From positions 56,276,524-56,340,523 of the forward strand of contig JASCQW010000099.1 of NCBI GenBank assembly GCA_030264375.1: 64,000 nucleotides of DNA, written 5' to 3'. Every line of letters starts with the position of its first letter. The first letter of the stretch is position 1. This document shows, piece after piece, positions 39,301-45,300 of this stretch. The stretch is from Carcharhinus longimanus (lineage: Eukaryota). Position numbers: made by a program.

Positions 39301-42300
39301 GGTGATCTTATCAAAAACATTCTGAGTCCAGAATGGGTGGGAAAACAGGAGAGTTTCAATTCTGTCTTTTTTGACGAGGCCTCCAGTTGACTTTTATGCA
39401 CTCTGTATAAAATAATTCCTTAAATCTGATTTCTGCCCAAAGGAGGAATGGGCAGGGCTTAGCTCACCTCAAAACCAGCTGATAGCAGAAGAGTGCACCA
39501 TTGCACATGTGCAGGTATCTGCTTCGAGAGCAGCAGAGATCTGTCACTGCCTCTGCAGCTTTCAGGCTGGCCTCCTTGGTCTAAATCTAGTACATCCCTG
39601 TCCCAGCTGATTGCACGTCCCTTCTCTGACCAGAACAATTGCCACCTCCCAACTGGAATAGTTACCCACCGCGCCATCCCATCAGACCAATTGCCATCCA
39701 TCCATCCATCCATCCCCCCCCCAATTGCTGTGCAGAGTGGCAGTCGTTTTGATGCCAGGTGGGCGGTGCCAAGGTTTCAGGGTGCCAGGCTAACATTGCC
39801 CAAGGGACACCCACCCTTGCCCCCAACCTCCGGGGGTGGCTTATTTCGTGGCCCTCTTGTGGTCTTCCCGGCTCATCCCGCCCATCGTCCCGCATGGCGC
39901 AATGGTAAGATCATCCCCAATACATGTGTCCTGTGCAGTGAAGCTAAGATGTGGGTTCCCCTGGAAAGTTGATTCCTGGGCCAAAGCCCCCTGTCCTTGA
40001 CCCTGCAAACGTACTCAGTGCATCTCTCAGTGAAAAACCCTCTAACTCACTTTCTAAAATATCTGGAGTGCCAGTTTCTGAGTTGGTGTCTGCAGTGGTG
40101 AAGGACAGTGGCATCTCTTCAGCCAGCGTCTCCTCTTTCCATGATGCCATTGCTTGTGATGGATCTGGAGAGGGAATTGAGGGCAAGAATGGGCAGTTAG
40201 TTACAAGAGTTAGCCGAGAGAGGTGAGTAAAGCAGCATCACTCAACAGCAAGATCAATGGAAAGAGAAAAAGAGGGTAGGATGGTTAAAATGACTGTGGA
40301 GTATATCATTCAGCTTGGCAGTTGAGATACTCCTGATTCATCTTCTGCTCTTGAGTTCTAGTGCAGCCTCTTCTCATGAGTACAGGATTTGTAGGGTAGG
40401 TGGGTCTCTCGAGCATTGTTTGTCCTACAAGGAGAAAGGGAGTGTTTTACTTTGTGGCCTGTTAAAAGGTTCTGAAGATTTGCATCTTGATAAAATAGTG
40501 CAGCAGGTGCAGGGAAGATGCAAGAGGAATGGGGACGTCGGGAGAATAATTTTGAGAACAATTGTATGTCATAGAATAATAGAATCTGTCAGTGCAAAAA
40601 GAGGCCATCCACCCATCAAGTCTGTATTGACCACATTGAGTATGCATTGACCACATTCTCCTTTTGTAGTCACAGCTCCACTGTGGAAAAACTGCACGAA
40701 ACATTTTTATTTCGAACCTATCCCCATAACCCCATGCATTTACACTGCTAGTTCCCCCTGACACTAAAAGGTCATTTGGCATGGCCAATCCACCTAACCC
40801 GCACATCTTTGGACTGAGAGGAAACTGGAGCACCCGGAGGAAACCCACACAGACACAGGGAGAAGATGCAAACTCCGCACCGACAGTGACCCAAGCCAGG
40901 AATCGAACCTGTGTCCCTGGCACTGTGAGGTAGCAGTGCTAACCATTGCACCACTGTGCCACCCTAAGTAGCTGTAGAAGGGGGTTCAACAAAGTATACT
41001 TCTGTGATTGGAAATTTTGACTCATGGGGCTACAGATGGAGCATTATTAAGCAGAGTAACTAGGATGTAAGGAGTCTTAGCATAGCAACTATGGTGAGAT
41101 CATTGTATTTCTTTAGGCTTTGCAGCCAGCCTCTAAGCTCACTCCTTCTTAAAGTGAGATTTAAGCTGCTGTGTCACTTTTGACCACTGCTGCTAAGTTG
41201 ATTATCTTTGCACAATTCTGTTATAATGGAAAATAACAATTCCAGGAGGAGCAACGTCTGAGAGTTGGGCATCTTTGTAGAAATTCTAATTGCTATCATC
41301 ACTTTTCAGCAATGATTCAAAGCAGCTGAAGAGCACCTCACCTTTAAGAGCTGCCAATGACCTTAAAATGGCACCAACAGCACCCAGTTTCCCTCTATGC
41401 CGTTCAGTGAGCTGCCAATAAGTTCCCTGATCACAATCAAATGGAGCACAAAGAACTATTTGGCCTGTCTTACCCTTACCTAACTGGGGAATCAGTTGGC
41501 TCCGACACCCATCTTAAACCTGTATTTAGAATGACTTGAATATTTTCATTTTTTTAAATCTTAGTATGAAATTTTTATAACTTACATTTTCTAACAGATG
41601 AGATTGAAATGTTGCAAACTGTAATAGGATAGTGTAAAAATTAATTTAGAGGTCATGTTTTTGGCATACTTATATTCTTAAGGTTACTCATAACATTAAC
41701 TCCATGTCATTTTAACATATGCTTAAGTTTTGAATCTGATTTAGTTGTGAGAATCTGATACTTTCAAAAATATTTTGTTGAATAGATTATAATACAAAGG
41801 AAAATAGTATAGATTGCCCATTAATTGATATACTTTGTGTGTAAAAATGAGTAGATTATTATGGCAGTTAAACAGCCAGCCTCCAGTAGTTATGTGGATT
41901 CCTCCCAATTTAAAAGTTGTTAGTTTTTTGCTTGAGTAATATTTTGCAAAACCTATTTTTTATTGAGTCTCATAATCTAGTTTACAACCATTCAAGAAAG
42001 TACCCAAGAATCTTTATAAATAGATTGTTGATTCAAAAGAAAGGGATCCAGCTTGGGCAGCACTGCTGCCTCATAGCGCCAGGGACCTGGGTTCAATTCC
42101 TCGGATCACTATCTGTGTGGAATTTGCATGTTTTTCCCGTGTCTGCGTAGGTTTTCTCTAGGTGCTCTGGTTTCCTCCCACATGCCAAAGATGTGCAGGT
42201 TAGGTTGATTGGCCATGCTAAATTACTCCTTAGTGTCAGGGGAACTAGGAGGGTAAATAGTGGGGATATGGGATAGGGCCTGGGTGGGATTGTTGTTGGT

Positions 42301-45300
42301 ACAGGCTCAGTGGGCCAATTGGCCACTTTCTGCACTGTAGGATTCTTTATGAAATCTCGCCTTTTATTCTCCAACATCTTCAATATTTGGAGAATTGGAA
42401 ATTTATAGTACAAAAGGAGGCCATTGGTCATACGTACGTCAGCCTGTTCTTTGATATCTCCAGTTGTAATTGCTCCATCATTAGTGACTGGGCCTTCAGC
42501 TGCCTGGGCCCTGAACACTGAAATTCCCTCCCTAAACCTCTCCCATTTATCAATCTCTCTCTCTCCTCTTTTAAGATGTGCCTTAAAATGACAAGCAATC
42601 CCAAACTGATTGTATTATCCACCCCTCACTACATATTTTTGTTTTTTCACATCTCATGCCACACACCTCCCCACACACACCTACTCACAGCAGGTGAGTA
42701 CCTTCAACAAAATTGTTCTTAGGAATTTGTTTCCATTTCTAGTGCTTGTAGAAATCTTCTGGAGATTCGAGGCAGATCTTGGATATTAAAAATCGCCTTA
42801 CTGTCTAGACAGCTTTTCACATGACCAGCCTACATCCCTTCATATTCAAGTTCAGTATCGTAAGGTTGTGTGTTGGTTCTGGTGGTAATGCACTCAGGCA
42901 GGGAAAGTTATTGTTATGCCCAAATAAAAATGTTTCGAGCAGTTTTTCCACACTGGAGGTTTGACTACAAAGGGAGAATGTCAGCCTGCCCCATCACCTG
43001 GATTAACTTCTACCCCGGCCTCAAAATAAAATCACCTAACCCACCTCTCCCCACTGTCATTGCAGAGACATCAATGCCGTGGATAGACTTTGTTCTGATT
43101 TTGCAGTCCTTGCAATATCAGATCTTACTACATGTATTAGAAAAAAACTCAATCAATTTCTTCCAAGAGTTTAAATTTCTACCAGACATTGCATTGATAT
43201 TATTGACTCAGCTGCTGCTGCAATAATTACGGAGTATCCCCCTGGGGTTTTGCTGCCATTATCTATTGATTACAGTCAAAGAGCTGATAACTAATGTGGC
43301 CAGACCAGGATATTTTAAGTCCTATACGCTTGATCAGTTGCAACTAACCAACCAATCAATTCAAAATATGGAAAGAGGATTGATGATCAAGCAAAGCTTA
43401 TGTGAGAAGTTTGGTGAAAGGTAGACTACCCAGATGTAAACAGTGTTTAAAGATGTGTTTAGAAGGACAAATTTTAATCAAGAACGCTTTTATTTCTTAG
43501 TACTTAATATATCGTGAATTAGTTTCTATTCTGATGAGTAAGTAGATGCAGGACTGGACAAATGATGACTTGATTAGTGCTTGGGCAGTTAATATAGACT
43601 TATAGAATTGTAGTGTCATCAAAATAAACAGCAAGATTAGAAAATTTGAGTTGCTTGAATTCAGGAGACAATTAATTCCACTGCGTGCCAAATGTTTCTT
43701 CCAGCTTTATCATAAAACCTTAAAGCTATTCTCACTTTCTGTCGGTGCACAAATACTATTGCAGTTCTTGTAGAGTTAAAGGATGATCAGCAAAGCACAA
43801 ATGTAGTTTTCAGGTTGCAAAATGTATTTATATGCAATGTACATTCAATGAAAAGACATTATTTGTGCTTGAATGGTACAATAATCATTATTGATTTTTG
43901 AGATGTAATTAAATTAATGAAATATGAAGGTTTTGTCAGTGTCATCAGTAGGAAGTTACTTGTTGGAATTATATTGTTGTATATTGATGTACCCATGTGG
44001 ATGGTAGAAAGAAACACTGATAGTCAAAGGGGTATTTTGTATCTGGTGTAAATAGGATATCCATTGGTTATTGTTAGTGAACTATCAAGAGTGGTTCTAT
44101 GTTCAATAGGAGGCAAGAGAAGAGATTTATAAAGAAAGTATGTCTCAGCAAAGGGCTTAGAGCTAACCTGATTCAAGGATTTTAATACTGTTTTGTTACA
44201 GTTGGCAAACAAATGTTTAGGATTGTGGTAATATTTTTGCCACCCTGCAGAGGTTGGGAGTTGAAAAACTGTGGCTTCTTTGGGTGGTAAGTATTTTATG
44301 TGAGCCACCAATTGAGTCACTTATTGCGGTTGCTTCGGTAGATCCAATTAAGTCTAACTGCACATTCTGAACATAGTATACTTGTACTGTCAGTGAGATC
44401 CAGATTAGACCAAAGTACTGCTGCAGCAAGATTGACATGATTCAAGTCACATTTTTAACATTTGATGGAATTTGGTAAAATAAATTACAACGCATATCGC
44501 ATTGATATTTAGTAGCATCATGGATTATGACAACTATTTTTCTCTGTACTTCTATGTGGTTGTAACAAAATCAATGTTCAGAATTAATGCGTGATGTAAA
44601 AGGTCTTGTGGAACATATTGAAAATGGATGCAAGAACATTATTTGCATGAAGAAAATAATTTCTCTTACATTAGAATAAGTCACCTTGTCCTCTGTATAA
44701 ATGTGTTGATGACAGCAGCACTGACATGAATAAAGGAATAGTACATGTGACTGAAGTTCCAGAGATAGTATCAGATGCGCATAAGGGTACAGGGGAAAGT
44801 CTGAAAACTAGAATGGGAGGAGGAAAAGTAGATGCTGATTTCAAGGGACCAATAGATAATGCAAGTACAGAAATTTTTCACATGTACTTTAAAACCATAC
44901 ACATGCCAATACAGTTACTTTCACTGTAATCTTGTGTATTGTATTTATCCACAAATACAGTTCATTGTTTCTATGCAGCACCACAGCCTCTCAGTACTGC
45001 ACTGGAATGTCCAAGTCTCTGGAATGGGACTTAAATCCACACTCTTTATGGCACAGAGGCTAGTACTAACTGAGTGAATGCTAACATCATGCTTGTAATT
45101 TTGAAATCTTGGCCAAAAGTGGTTGATTTTTTTATATTTCTTGTAGCTGTGCTACACATATTAGGATTAAGATTTCCTGGGTTCTGTACCAGTCATTTTA
45201 GGCTTCCCCATGGGATTTTACTGGTCTTCTATTGGTCAAAGTTATGTGGAGACTGATAAAAGCCCAACACATTTTAGGTGCTTTGCGCAAAGGGGTACAA

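What the first reader, a model, noticed from the sequence alone, without database searches (positions are those of the whole stretch)
40569..42981. SINE carrying an internal 60-bp inverted copy of intron sequence from 2.2 kb downstream
Seen: the minus-strand HE1 SINE (40569-40964) is interrupted near its 3' tail. Bases 40653-40712 replace roughly a dozen SINE nucleotides present in the other copies and are the reverse complement of 42922-42981 (55/60, no gaps). The junction has a 12-bp direct duplication, ATTGACCACATT (40626-37 and 40646-57). None of the other nine HE1 copies in the window shows this insert. Read in SINE-RNA sense, the insert has the same polarity as KCNH1 pre-mRNA. Inference: either the reverse transcriptase switched from SINE RNA to nascent host pre-mRNA (or local DNA) and back during insertion, or a later break was repaired by polymerase-theta-type templated insertion.
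Basis: partly seen in the sequence, partly recalled or inferred. Interest (0 to 1): 0.7.

Follow-up and report, generated by a model that had tools for sequence, protein, structure and literature searches.

The report
Repair scar inside a shark SINE
A short interspersed repeat in an intron of a potassium-channel gene carries a 60-base patch copied backwards from 2.2 kb away, most likely a scar of error-prone break repair or replication, a known kind of mutation and not a new kind of element.

Summary
Window 40653-40712 is the reverse complement of 42922-42981 at 55 of 60 positions without gaps. These are the only two copies in the 64-kb window (E about 1e-16). Homology stops sharply at both ends. 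The block lies inside a minus-strand tRNA-derived SINE. All 7 other SINE copies that cover this point lack it; 2 further copies are uninformative. About 8-11 SINE bases are missing. The junction duplication is a 20-bp tandem repeat (17/20), not just 12 bp, and is bounded by a CAT microhomology. Its last 5 bases (ACATT) overlap the start of the copied block. The host gene is KCNH1-like on the + strand, and no exon was found after 36386.

Best reading (confidence about 0.6): serial, microhomology-primed template switching by a DNA polymerase at a broken or stalled 3' end, after the SINE had inserted. This would be polymerase-theta end joining or MMBIR type. Three rough clocks put the event later than the SINE, but none is decisive (P 0.07 to 5e-5, depending on assumptions).

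Reverse-transcriptase switching at insertion stays possible (about 0.13). Genome-wide uniqueness and orthologous loci could not be checked, because no eukaryote genome collection was available. Interest is low to moderate.

The parts
   Evidence: Self-blastn finds nine other copies in the window; alignments A1 and A2. Matches to the A-box and B-box motifs (recalled consensus) at SINE positions 4 and 56. ARAGORN and Rfam give no hit.
40713..40964 (-). SINE head and body, up to the junction with the insert. This junction has at most 1 nt of microhomology with the donor flank.
   Evidence: Alignments to other copies; flank comparison.
40653..40712 (+). 60-nt foreign block, an inverted copy of 42922-42981 (55/60). 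Its first 5 bases (ACATT, 40653-40657) are also the last bases of the tandem duplication, giving a microhomology junction.
   Evidence: Absent from 7 of 7 informative SINE copies.
40618..40657 (+). 20-bp tandem duplication of SINE tail sequence (40618-40637 and 40638-40657, 17/20 identity), bounded by CAT at 40614-16, 40634-36 and 40654-56
   Evidence: Period-20 comparison; family D1 of the repeat finder. Single-copy in the other SINEs.
40569..40617 (-). Remaining SINE 3' tail, colinear with the other copies
42922..42981 (+). Inferred template (donor), in sequence that is otherwise unique within the window
   Evidence: Self-blastn of 42351-44500 finds only this match, plus one unrelated repeat at 42479-42586. 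Both ends of the homology coincide with the SINE/non-SINE boundaries at the other locus, which points to the direction donor to SINE.
42054..42350 (+). Neighbouring SINE copy in the opposite orientation to the focal one. The pair is inverted, head to head, 1090 bp apart. The donor lies 572 bp beyond this copy's tail.
   Evidence: inverted pairs I2 and I3 (88% and 90%).
36126..36386 (+). Open frame holding the last exon of the KCNH1-like host gene that I could find upstream of the finding (cyclic-nucleotide-binding homology domain)
   Evidence: Pfam cNMP_binding, E 1.8e-5, below the curated cut-off. PDB best match is a KCNH1 chain, E 5e-52 over 86 residues. No exon detected from 36387 to 64000.

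Best explanation
This is a templated-insertion scar made at the DNA level after the SINE was already in place.

Proposed sequence of events:
1. A break or a stalled nascent strand arose inside the SINE tail, and about 8-11 SINE bases were lost.
2. A free 3' end was extended in short bursts on whatever single-stranded template it could pair with over a few bases.
3. One burst re-copied 20 nt of the adjacent SINE tail, using a CAT microhomology.
4. Another burst copied about 55-60 nt, in inverted orientation, from a site 2.2 kb away on the same chromosome. One end of this copy shares a 5-nt microhomology (ACATT / AATGT).
5. The end was then joined to the other side with at most 1 nt of homology.

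Two strand-level versions fit equally well:
- (A) The minus-strand 3' tail of the higher-coordinate end snaps back onto itself 2.2 kb upstream after long resection. It then anneals to the other end through AATGT and slips once through ATG.
- (B) The + strand 3' end of the lower-coordinate side slips back 20 nt, then copies the + strand of the donor. This is an MMBIR/FoSTeS-type switch at a fork, on a sister chromatid or on displaced DNA.

What is shown: the copy, its limits, the deletion, the duplication and the microhomologies. What is inferred: the enzyme (polymerase theta, or polymerase delta in MMBIR or fold-back repair), the break, the order of steps and the timing.

A likely by-product (inference): the intron RNA can now pair over 60 nt across a 2.2-kb loop.
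For: 1. Anatomy of a deletion-insertion scar.
- A foreign 60-mer with sharp limits.
- 8-11 SINE bases missing relative to 7 of 7 informative copies.
- An adjoining 20-bp tandem duplication of the flank, 17/20 identity.
- Microhomology of 3 nt and 5 nt at two of the three switch points.

2. One break explains why the departure and return points in the SINE lie only about 10 nt apart.

3. Template in cis, inverted, 2.2 kb away. Both ends of the homology coincide with the SINE/non-SINE boundaries, so the direction of copying was into the SINE.

4. Timing. The 60-mer pair differs at 5/60, or 8/80 with the duplication.
- The SINE differs from the leave-one-out consensus at 57/322 positions. At non-CpG sites this is 47/298, of which 23 are private.
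- If the copy dated from SINE insertion, the expected pair divergence would be twice the SINE's own. Then P(<=5/60) = 0.067 with private changes only (p = 0.16) and 5e-5 with p = 0.30.
- CpG sites: 4 of 19 inferred sites are kept in the SINE. The one CpG in the 60-mer is kept in both copies.
- Both duplication units share 3 differences from the family consensus, including a CpG-to-CpA change. The SINE had therefore already drifted, or belonged to a variant, before the event.

5. Mismatch spectrum. 4 of the 5 mismatches are transversions. This fits some errors made at copying. PMC5068794 (passages seen) estimates about 1 error per 30 bp in POLQ-templated inserts.

6. Literature (passages seen).
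- POLQ scars with templated inserts, repeated priming, about 3% from distant sites, and reverse-complement snap-back inserts (PMC5068794).
- Inverted, microhomology-flanked MMB-TI insertions as human germline variants: 103 and 99 events of >=25 bp in two individuals, built from up to five templates (PMC8421209).
- Yeast fold-back insertions of 2 to about 150 bp (PMC11724301).

7. Context. The focal SINE forms an inverted pair with the SINE at 42054-42350. Folding of single-stranded DNA on this pair would bring the break and the donor closer together (inference).
Against: - The size (60 nt) and the distance (2.2 kb) lie outside the typical range. POLQ inserts are mostly under 25 bp and map a few bases from the junction (PMC5068794). 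The MMB-TI survey only looked for templates within 100 bp (PMC8421209).
- The clock argument is weak.
  - The consensus comes from only 6 other old copies of mixed subfamilies.
  - The conservative version is not significant (P = 0.067 for 5/60; 0.09 for 8/80).
  - The CpG comparison rests on very few sites.
  - No target-site duplication was found that could date the SINE independently.
- The junction at 40712/40713 shows at most 1 nt of microhomology.
- Version B needs the + strand of the donor to be single-stranded. An RNA template would supply this more naturally.
- Uniqueness of the 60-mer is shown only within 64 kb.
- No ortholog, no reads and no second example were available.
Confidence: 0.6

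Rival explanations
1. Capture at insertion by the LINE reverse transcriptase. During target-primed reverse transcription of the SINE RNA, the growing cDNA (+ strand sense, running from the tail towards the head) took four steps:
1. It slipped back 20 nt on the SINE RNA (CAT microhomology).
2. It jumped through ACATT/AATGT onto nascent KCNH1-like pre-mRNA from 2.2 kb downstream.
3. It copied about 55 nt.
4. It jumped back to the SINE RNA about 10 nt beyond the point where it had left.
For: - In SINE sense the insert has the polarity of the host transcript (gene on +).
- The template would be naturally single-stranded.
- The same microhomologies serve as jump sites.
- LINE reverse transcriptases do switch templates, and double switches giving tripartite chimeras are reported (PMC2104539, abstract seen; PMC13174262, passages seen).
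- The conservative clock does not reject simultaneity (P = 0.067).
Against: - The chimeras in the papers I read are end-to-end fusions of different RNAs, not an excursion that returns to the first template within about 10 nt.
- In those papers the partner RNAs are mostly abundant small RNAs. Here Rfam finds nothing in 40000-44000, and the donor is intron sequence.
- The polarity match has a 50% chance expectation.
- All three rough clocks put the event later than the SINE.
- No target-site duplication was found that would tie the structure to one retroposition event.
- A heritable event needs the pre-mRNA in germ-line or early embryonic cells. In mammals KCNH1 is mainly a brain gene (recalled, not tested; unknown for this animal).
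Confidence: 0.13
2. A later break in the SINE was repaired from an RNA template or a cDNA patch derived from the local intron transcript. This would be a class 2 templated sequence insertion, or RNA-templated synthesis by a repair polymerase.
For: - The scar features are the same as in the best explanation.
- The template polarity equals that of the transcript.
- Class 2 insertions with microdeletion, microhomology and no poly(A) are described as RNA-derived patches at breaks (PMC5110952, abstract and passages seen).
- Reverse-transcriptase activity of polymerase theta is recalled from the literature and was not checked here.
Against: - The reported patches are 73-414 bp, median 191 bp, and come from distant loci on many chromosomes (PMC5110952). 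Here the patch is 60 nt from 2.2 kb away in cis.
- There is the same doubt about germ-line transcription of the host gene (recalled).
- Nothing in the sequence requires RNA.
Confidence: 0.05
3. The 60-mer is not a private copy but part of a dispersed repeat, or a module of a SINE subfamily. Either both window copies come from a third source, or the 42922 copy was templated from the SINE.
For: - Uniqueness is shown only inside 64 kb.
- The window is rich in repeats.
- A 5-nt direct repeat (TGCCC) brackets the donor block plus 6 further bases at 42917-42992. This could be chance.
Against: - Both ends of the homology coincide, within 0-5 nt, with the boundaries between SINE and non-SINE sequence at 40653-40712. 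That is expected for copying into the SINE, not for two random fragments of a larger repeat.
- There is no flanking target duplication around the block. The 20-bp repeat lies on one side only.
- 7 of 7 informative SINE copies lack the block.
- There is no other hit in the window, even at word size 7.
Confidence: 0.12
4. An assembly or read artefact: a chimeric join inside a repeat.
For: The window has 11 runs of N. One near-identical direct duplicate flanks a gap (50001-50065 and 50166-50230, 97%), so local assembly errors do exist.
Against: - The two copies differ at 5 of 60 positions, and the duplication units at 3 of 20. An artefact should give identical copies.
- The nearest gaps are about 8-10 kb away.
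Confidence: 0.03

Closest known systems
Polymerase-theta-mediated end joining scars (deletion plus templated insert; SD-MMEJ snap-back and loop-out)
   Same: - A small deletion.
- An insert copied from nearby DNA, with more than one templated piece.
- Short microhomology at the priming points.
- A reverse-complement copy, as expected from snap-back.
- Mismatches within the copy (PMC5068794 passages).
   Different: - Typical inserts are under 25 bp and are templated within a few bases to tens of bases. Only about 3% map to distant sites.
- Here the insert is 60 nt from 2.2 kb away.
- Dependence on the enzyme cannot be tested from sequence.
MMBIR / FoSTeS templated insertions (MMB-TI)
   Same: - The insert is an inverted copy of a nearby template and is flanked by microhomology.
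- It can be built from several templates.
- Such insertions occur as inherited germ-line variants of 25 bp and more (PMC8421209 passages).
   Different: The published survey only searched for templates within 100 bp, so the 2.2-kb distance is outside what it measured. No larger rearrangement accompanies this event.
Fold-back (hairpin-primed) inverted insertions at breaks in yeast
   Same: One resected end primes on itself through inverted microhomology, makes a short inverted copy, and is then captured by the other end. Reported sizes run from 2 to about 150 bp (PMC11724301 passages).
   Different: The loop in that system is 41 nt and the priming microhomology is 10 nt. Here the loop would be 2.2 kb and the priming microhomology at that junction is at most 1 nt.
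LINE reverse-transcriptase template-switch chimeras (U6/L1, Alu/L1, tripartite retro-elements)
   Same: Pieces of different transcripts are joined in the same orientation, and double switches are documented.
   Different: - Those are end-to-end fusions bounded by target-site duplications, usually with abundant RNAs.
- Here the foreign piece is internal and the original template is resumed about 10 nt further on.
- The partner is intron sequence, and no target-site duplication was found.
Class 2 templated sequence insertion polymorphisms
   Same: An insertion at a break with microdeletion and microhomology, without poly(A) or target duplication (PMC5110952).
   Different: Those patches are longer (73-414 bp), come from distant loci, and are argued to derive from RNA.

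Membership tests
   Matches to the A-box and B-box consensus motifs (recalled) at SINE positions 4 and 56. ARAGORN and Rfam do not call a tRNA. A table in PMC3747384 lists HE1 as tRNA-derived.
No reference HE1 sequence was available in any tool.
   The partner is named in a table of PMC3747384. No HER1 sequence was at hand, and no reverse-transcriptase frame was seen in the window.
   Ten copies or fragments in 64 kb.
Polymerase-theta end-joining scar (templated delins) | Loss of bases at the junction together with an insertion | tested here: met
   8-11 consensus SINE bases are absent and 60 + 20 nt are added, relative to 7 of 7 informative copies.
Polymerase-theta end-joining scar (templated delins) | Insert traceable to nearby sequence, often in several pieces | tested here: met
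   The 20-nt piece comes from the immediate flank. The 60-nt piece comes from 2.2 kb away, inverted.
Polymerase-theta end-joining scar (templated delins) | Microhomology (1 nt or more) at priming points | tested here: met
   CAT (3 nt) and ACATT (5 nt) at two junctions; 0-1 nt at the third.
Polymerase-theta end-joining scar (templated delins) | Usual scale: insert under 25 bp, template within tens of bases | tested here: not met
   The insert is 60 nt and the template is 2209 nt away, against the ranges in PMC5068794.
Polymerase-theta end-joining scar (templated delins) | Genetic dependence on POLQ | not testable with these tools
   This needs experiments.
MMBIR-type templated insertion (MMB-TI) | Insert is an inverted copy of a nearby template, with microhomology at the junctions | tested here: met
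   The signature is described in PMC8421209.
MMBIR-type templated insertion (MMB-TI) | Template within 100 bp (operational limit of the published search) | tested here: not met
   Distance 2209 nt.
LINE reverse-transcriptase template-switch chimera | Parts joined in the same transcriptional sense | tested here: met
   The insert in SINE sense equals the + strand, which is the host gene's sense. Chance expectation is 50%.
LINE reverse-transcriptase template-switch chimera | The whole chimera bounded by one target-site duplication | tested here: not met
   No direct repeat of 6 nt or more between the two flanks. SINEs mobilised by CR1-like LINEs often lack clear duplications (recalled), so this test carries little weight.
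LINE reverse-transcriptase template-switch chimera | Foreign part acquired at the moment of insertion | tested here: inconclusive
   The divergence clocks lean towards a later date. P ranges from 0.067 to 5e-5 depending on the assumed SINE age.
KCNH1 (EAG1) potassium channel gene, as host | Exons that encode the channel's transmembrane and cyclic-nucleotide-binding homology domains, best matched by KCNH1 | tested here: met
   Pfam Ion_trans in the open frames 1262-1681 and 6335-6820; cNMP_binding in 36126-36386. The best PDB chains are KCNH1, just ahead of KCNH5: E 2.6e-78 against 8.8e-76, and 5e-52 against 1.2e-49.

The most novel reading that the evidence does not exclude
The insert records an out-and-back template switch of a CR1-like LINE reverse transcriptase during SINE insertion. 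The switch went from SINE RNA to the nascent intron RNA of the very gene being invaded, and then back. This would be physical evidence that target-primed reverse transcription takes place next to nascent host transcripts and can stitch host intron sequence into the interior of a SINE. It would also give a route by which SINE families acquire new internal modules.
Probability: 0.13. Interest if true: 0.55.

Novelty: new member of a known kind. Interest (0 to 1): 0.25.

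Why it matters
As a single event it matters little. It is one more inherited scar of template-switching repair or replication, here in an elasmobranch intron.

Two features give it modest value:
- **Known pre-event sequence.** The scar lies inside a multi-copy SINE, so the sequence before the event can be inferred from sister copies. Every junction can therefore be read, which is rarely possible for old events.
- **Unusual scale.** The template is 2.2 kb away and the copy is 60 nt long. 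Published surveys measure this range poorly: one looked only within 100 bp, and another found about 3% of inserts to be 'distant'.

A genome-wide census of such SINE-internal foreign blocks could measure how far and how often these switches reach in a vertebrate germ line. It could also show whether their polarity follows transcription, which would separate DNA-templated from RNA-templated mechanisms.

A side effect, by inference only, is a 60-bp near-perfect double-stranded RNA stem in the KCNH1-like intron (predicted -82 kcal/mol). This could be a substrate for RNA editing.

Tried and rejected
- **Small-RNA donor.** I asked whether the donor is a small RNA gene, the typical partner of reverse-transcriptase chimeras. 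Rfam at E up to 1 over 40000-44000 gave 0 matches, and ARAGORN gave 0 tRNAs in the whole window. Rejected.
- **Longer homology.** I looked for homology beyond the 60-mer, which would suggest a larger repeat or a segmental inverted duplication. None was found.
- **Transposon insertion with target-site duplication.** Rejected, because the 20-bp repeat units are adjacent and lie on one side of the block.
- **Dating the SINE from its own target-site duplication.** No duplication of 6 nt or more was found, so this clock is not available.
- **Further exons.** I searched between 36387 and 64000 to test whether the two arms lie in one intron. Pfam found none in 147 + strand frames of 38-69 aa, nor in the 104 frames scanned out of the 173 frames of 70 aa or more. 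I left out 69 of those, mostly the shorter ones or ones overlapping SINE copies. This is absence of a hit, not proof.
- **Genome-wide and cross-species checks.** The only genome collection on offer holds bacteria and archaea, and the other collections hold phages, plasmids and E. coli. None was used.
- **Failed call.** One literature look-up failed on a two-letter search term and was repeated with valid terms.
- **Unseen supplements.** The supplementary PDF figures S5 and S7 of PMC5068794 were not seen. They cover distances of distant templates and the share of snap-back events, and could bear on how unusual 2.2 kb is.

Full report
**The observation**

Bases 40653-40712 of the + strand are the reverse complement of 42922-42981 at 55 of 60 positions, without gaps. 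The repeat finder reports the same arms: 60 nt, 92% complementary, 2209 nt apart.

In a sensitive self-comparison of the window (word size 7, E up to 10), each 60-mer finds only itself and its partner (E 9.7e-17). The next best hit is 23 nt at 83% identity, E 0.11.

The homology stops sharply. With gapped local alignment the flanks give scores of 12 and 9. These are reached by 2.7% and 48% of 300 shuffles, and the first of them is not colinear with the 60-mer. Self-blastn of 39500-40568, 40965-42050 and 42351-44500 shows no other shared segment between the two neighbourhoods.

Window-wide, only 8 segment pairs occur exactly twice among 111 non-self matches, and this pair is one of them.

The five mismatches, and the distance of 8-10 kb to the nearest run of N, argue against an assembly chimera.

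**The setting**

The block lies in a SINE on the minus strand (40569-40964, head at the high coordinate). The SINE has matches to the polymerase III A-box and B-box motifs at positions 4 and 56 (motifs recalled). ARAGORN and Rfam do not recognise it.

I could not test the name HE1, because no reference sequence is in reach. A review table lists HE1 as a tRNA-derived V-SINE of sharks and rays whose partner LINE is HER1 (PMC3747384, passages). A dogfish genome paper cites the original description (PMC10468316, passages).

Nine other copies or fragments lie in the window, all in the + orientation.

The host gene is on the + strand. Frames at 1262-1681 and 6335-6820 match Pfam Ion_trans, and 36126-36386 matches cNMP_binding. 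The best solved-structure matches are KCNH1 chains, narrowly ahead of KCNH5.

Exons were searched one by one. No exon was detected between 36387 and 64000 (104 of the 173 frames of 70 aa or more, and all 147 + strand frames of 38-69 aa, were scanned). Both arms therefore probably lie in one long intron, but this is absence of a hit only.

I do not take the window for human. The runs of N were left untouched.

**Anatomy of the interruption**

Seven of the nine other copies span the point and all seven lack the block. The copy at 19694 is cut by a run of N, and the copy at 8340 diverges before the point.

Against their consensus, the focal copy lacks about 8-11 bases. In their place it carries two things:
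- **The 60-mer.**
- **A 20-bp tandem duplication of SINE tail sequence**, next to the 60-mer on the tail side. The units are 40618-40637 and 40638-40657, 17/20 identical.

The two units are adjacent. They do not flank the block, so they are not a target-site duplication.

The three switch points show the following:
- CAT precedes each unit and ends the second unit (40614-16, 40634-36, 40654-56).
- The last five bases of the second unit, ACATT (40653-57), are also the first five of the copied block. This is a 5-nt microhomology between SINE tail and donor.
- At the other junction (40712/40713), donor flank and SINE share at most one base.

Both ends of the homology coincide, within 0-5 nt, with the limits of SINE sequence. 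This is what copying into the SINE predicts. It is not expected if 42922-42981 had been copied from a longer SINE module, or if both were fragments of a third repeat.

**Mechanism**

The shared core of every model that fits is a 3' end extended in bursts on successive templates, each found through a few bases of pairing.

- **Version A.** The minus-strand 3' tail of the higher-coordinate end, made single-stranded by resection beyond 2.2 kb, folds back on itself. It copies 42922 to 42981 and anneals to the other end through AATGT. It then slips once through ATG, which gives the duplication.
- **Version B.** The + strand 3' end on the lower-coordinate side slips back 20 nt through CAT and re-copies. 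It then pairs through ACATT with the + strand of the donor, copies about 55 nt, and is joined to the other side with almost no homology.

The cDNA of a minus-oriented SINE grows in the + direction from tail to head, and the + sense template would be the host pre-mRNA. The sequence alone therefore cannot separate DNA from RNA templates. The polarity match has a 50% chance expectation.

**Timing**

I tried three rough clocks.

1. **Substitutions.** The arms differ at 5/60, or 8/80 with the duplication. The SINE differs from a leave-one-out consensus of six other copies at 57/322 positions. At non-CpG sites this is 47/298, of which 23 are private. If the copy dated from SINE insertion, the arms should differ by about twice the SINE's own post-insertion divergence. 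P(<=5/60) is 0.067 if only private changes count (p = 0.16), 0.012 at p = 0.20 and 5e-5 at p = 0.30.
2. **CpG decay.** The SINE keeps CG at 4 of 19 inferred CpG sites. The single CpG in the 60-mer survives in both arms.
3. **Shared changes.** Both duplication units share three differences from the family consensus, one of them a CpG-to-CpA change. The tail had therefore drifted, or belonged to a variant source, before the event.

All three clocks lean towards an event younger than the SINE, roughly a third of its age. Each is weak. The consensus is built from few, old, heterogeneous copies, the counts are small, and no target-site duplication could be found for an independent date.

Four of the five mismatches are transversions. 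That would fit some errors made during copying by an inaccurate polymerase, but five sites prove nothing.

**Weighing the models**

I favour a DNA-level repair or replication switch after insertion (about 0.6), for these reasons:
- One break accounts for the two SINE junctions lying about 10 nt apart.
- The combination of small deletion, flank-templated duplication, nearby inverted copy and microhomology is the published signature of such events.
- POLQ scars show repeated priming, about 3% distant templates, reverse-complement snap-back inserts and about 1 error per 30 bp (PMC5068794, passages).
- MMBIR-type insertions are inverted, flanked by microhomology and built from up to five templates. 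They are present as inherited variants, with 103 and 99 events of 25 bp or more in two people (PMC8421209, passages).
- Fold-back insertions of 2 to about 150 bp occur in yeast (PMC11724301, passages).
- A paper on three modes of polymerase theta extension was seen only in the search listing and the start of its abstract (PMC4912351).

Against this reading:
- Sixty nucleotides from 2.2 kb away is beyond the usual scale. Inserts are mostly under 25 bp with templates a few bases away, and the human survey searched only within 100 bp.
- One junction has almost no microhomology.

Context that may help, by inference: the focal SINE is the only antisense copy and forms a head-to-head inverted pair with the SINE at 42054-42350 (88-90% over 58 and 20 nt). 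Folding of single-stranded DNA on that pair would bring the break and the donor, 572 bp beyond the partner's tail, closer together. That inverted repeats promote breakage is recalled knowledge, not tested here.

**Rivals**

- **Reverse-transcriptase capture at insertion (about 0.13).** This has real support in the polarity and in the ready single-stranded template. Double template jumps by LINE enzymes are documented (PMC2104539, abstract; PMC13174262, passages). Those products, however, are end-to-end fusions bounded by target duplications, mostly with abundant small RNAs. Here the excursion is internal, returns to the same template, and uses intron RNA of a gene that in mammals is mainly expressed in brain (recalled).
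- **RNA-templated repair of a later break (about 0.05).** This resembles class 2 templated sequence insertions, which are longer (73-414 bp) and come from distant loci (PMC5110952, abstract and passages).
- **A dispersed repeat or SINE subfamily (about 0.12).** This cannot be excluded without the genome, though the coincidence of the boundaries speaks against it.
- **An artefact (about 0.03).** This is unlikely given the mismatches.

My literature search for SINE template-switch chimeras found 48 papers holding at least 5 of 6 terms, of which 12 were listed. I read passages or abstracts of two. I did not see an internal out-and-back capture described, but this is not a claim that none is in print.

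**What stayed unchecked**

- Genome-wide copy number of the 60-mer.
- Orthologous loci.
- Raw reads.
- A proper subfamily consensus.

Supplementary PDF figures of PMC5068794 (S5, S7), which may show how far 'distant' templates lie, were not seen.

**Verdict**

This is a well-preserved example of a known kind of mutation, unusual only in scale. Interest is low to moderate (0.25).

A consequence, by inference: the intron transcript can form a 60-bp stem of about -82 kcal/mol. For comparison, 200 shuffles gave a mean of -17.7 and a minimum of -32.

Noticed in passing
window 2729-3080, 8340-8478, 19694-19933, 23521-23660, 33397-33727, 42054-42350, 51504-51835, 53511-53826, 54115-54227 against 40569-40964: All nine other SINE copies or fragments lie in the + orientation, the sense of the host gene. 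The interrupted copy is the only antisense one. This is a 9 to 1 orientation bias within one gene.
   Followed up: partly
window 14373-14726 (-) and 38528-38764 (+): Open frames match the DDE_Tnp_4 transposase domain (E 1.7e-10 and 0.0035). They are probably remnants of PIF/Harbinger-type DNA transposons in the introns.
   Followed up: no
window 50001-50065 and 50166-50230: A 65-nt direct duplicate at 97% identity lies on either side of the run of N at 50066-50165. It looks like an assembly overlap at a gap and not biology.
   Followed up: no
window 9071-9237 and 10759-10931; also 9032-9059: An inverted pair of about 170 nt at 80% identity lies 1.5 kb apart. It may be the terminal inverted repeats of a DNA transposon or two copies of a repeat. 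Next to it is a perfect 28-nt palindrome.
   Followed up: no
window 42479-42586 and 59114-59219; 63701-63978 and 28033-28288; 50483-50544 and 28101-28161: Further low-copy repeats unrelated to the SINE, at 70-82% identity. The first lies between the neighbouring SINE and the donor.
   Followed up: no
window 42917-42921 and 42988-42992: A 5-nt direct repeat (TGCCC) brackets the donor block plus six further bases. It may be chance, or a hint that the donor segment has an insertion history of its own.
   Followed up: no
alignment A2, SINE tails (for example 2729-3080, 53511-53826, 54115-54411 against 33397-33727, 42054-42350, 51504-51835, 23502-23760): The SINE copies fall into two tail variants. 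They differ by an indel of about 10 nt just upstream of the conserved tail motif. So at least two subfamilies are mixed in the window, which weakens any consensus-based dating.
   Followed up: partly
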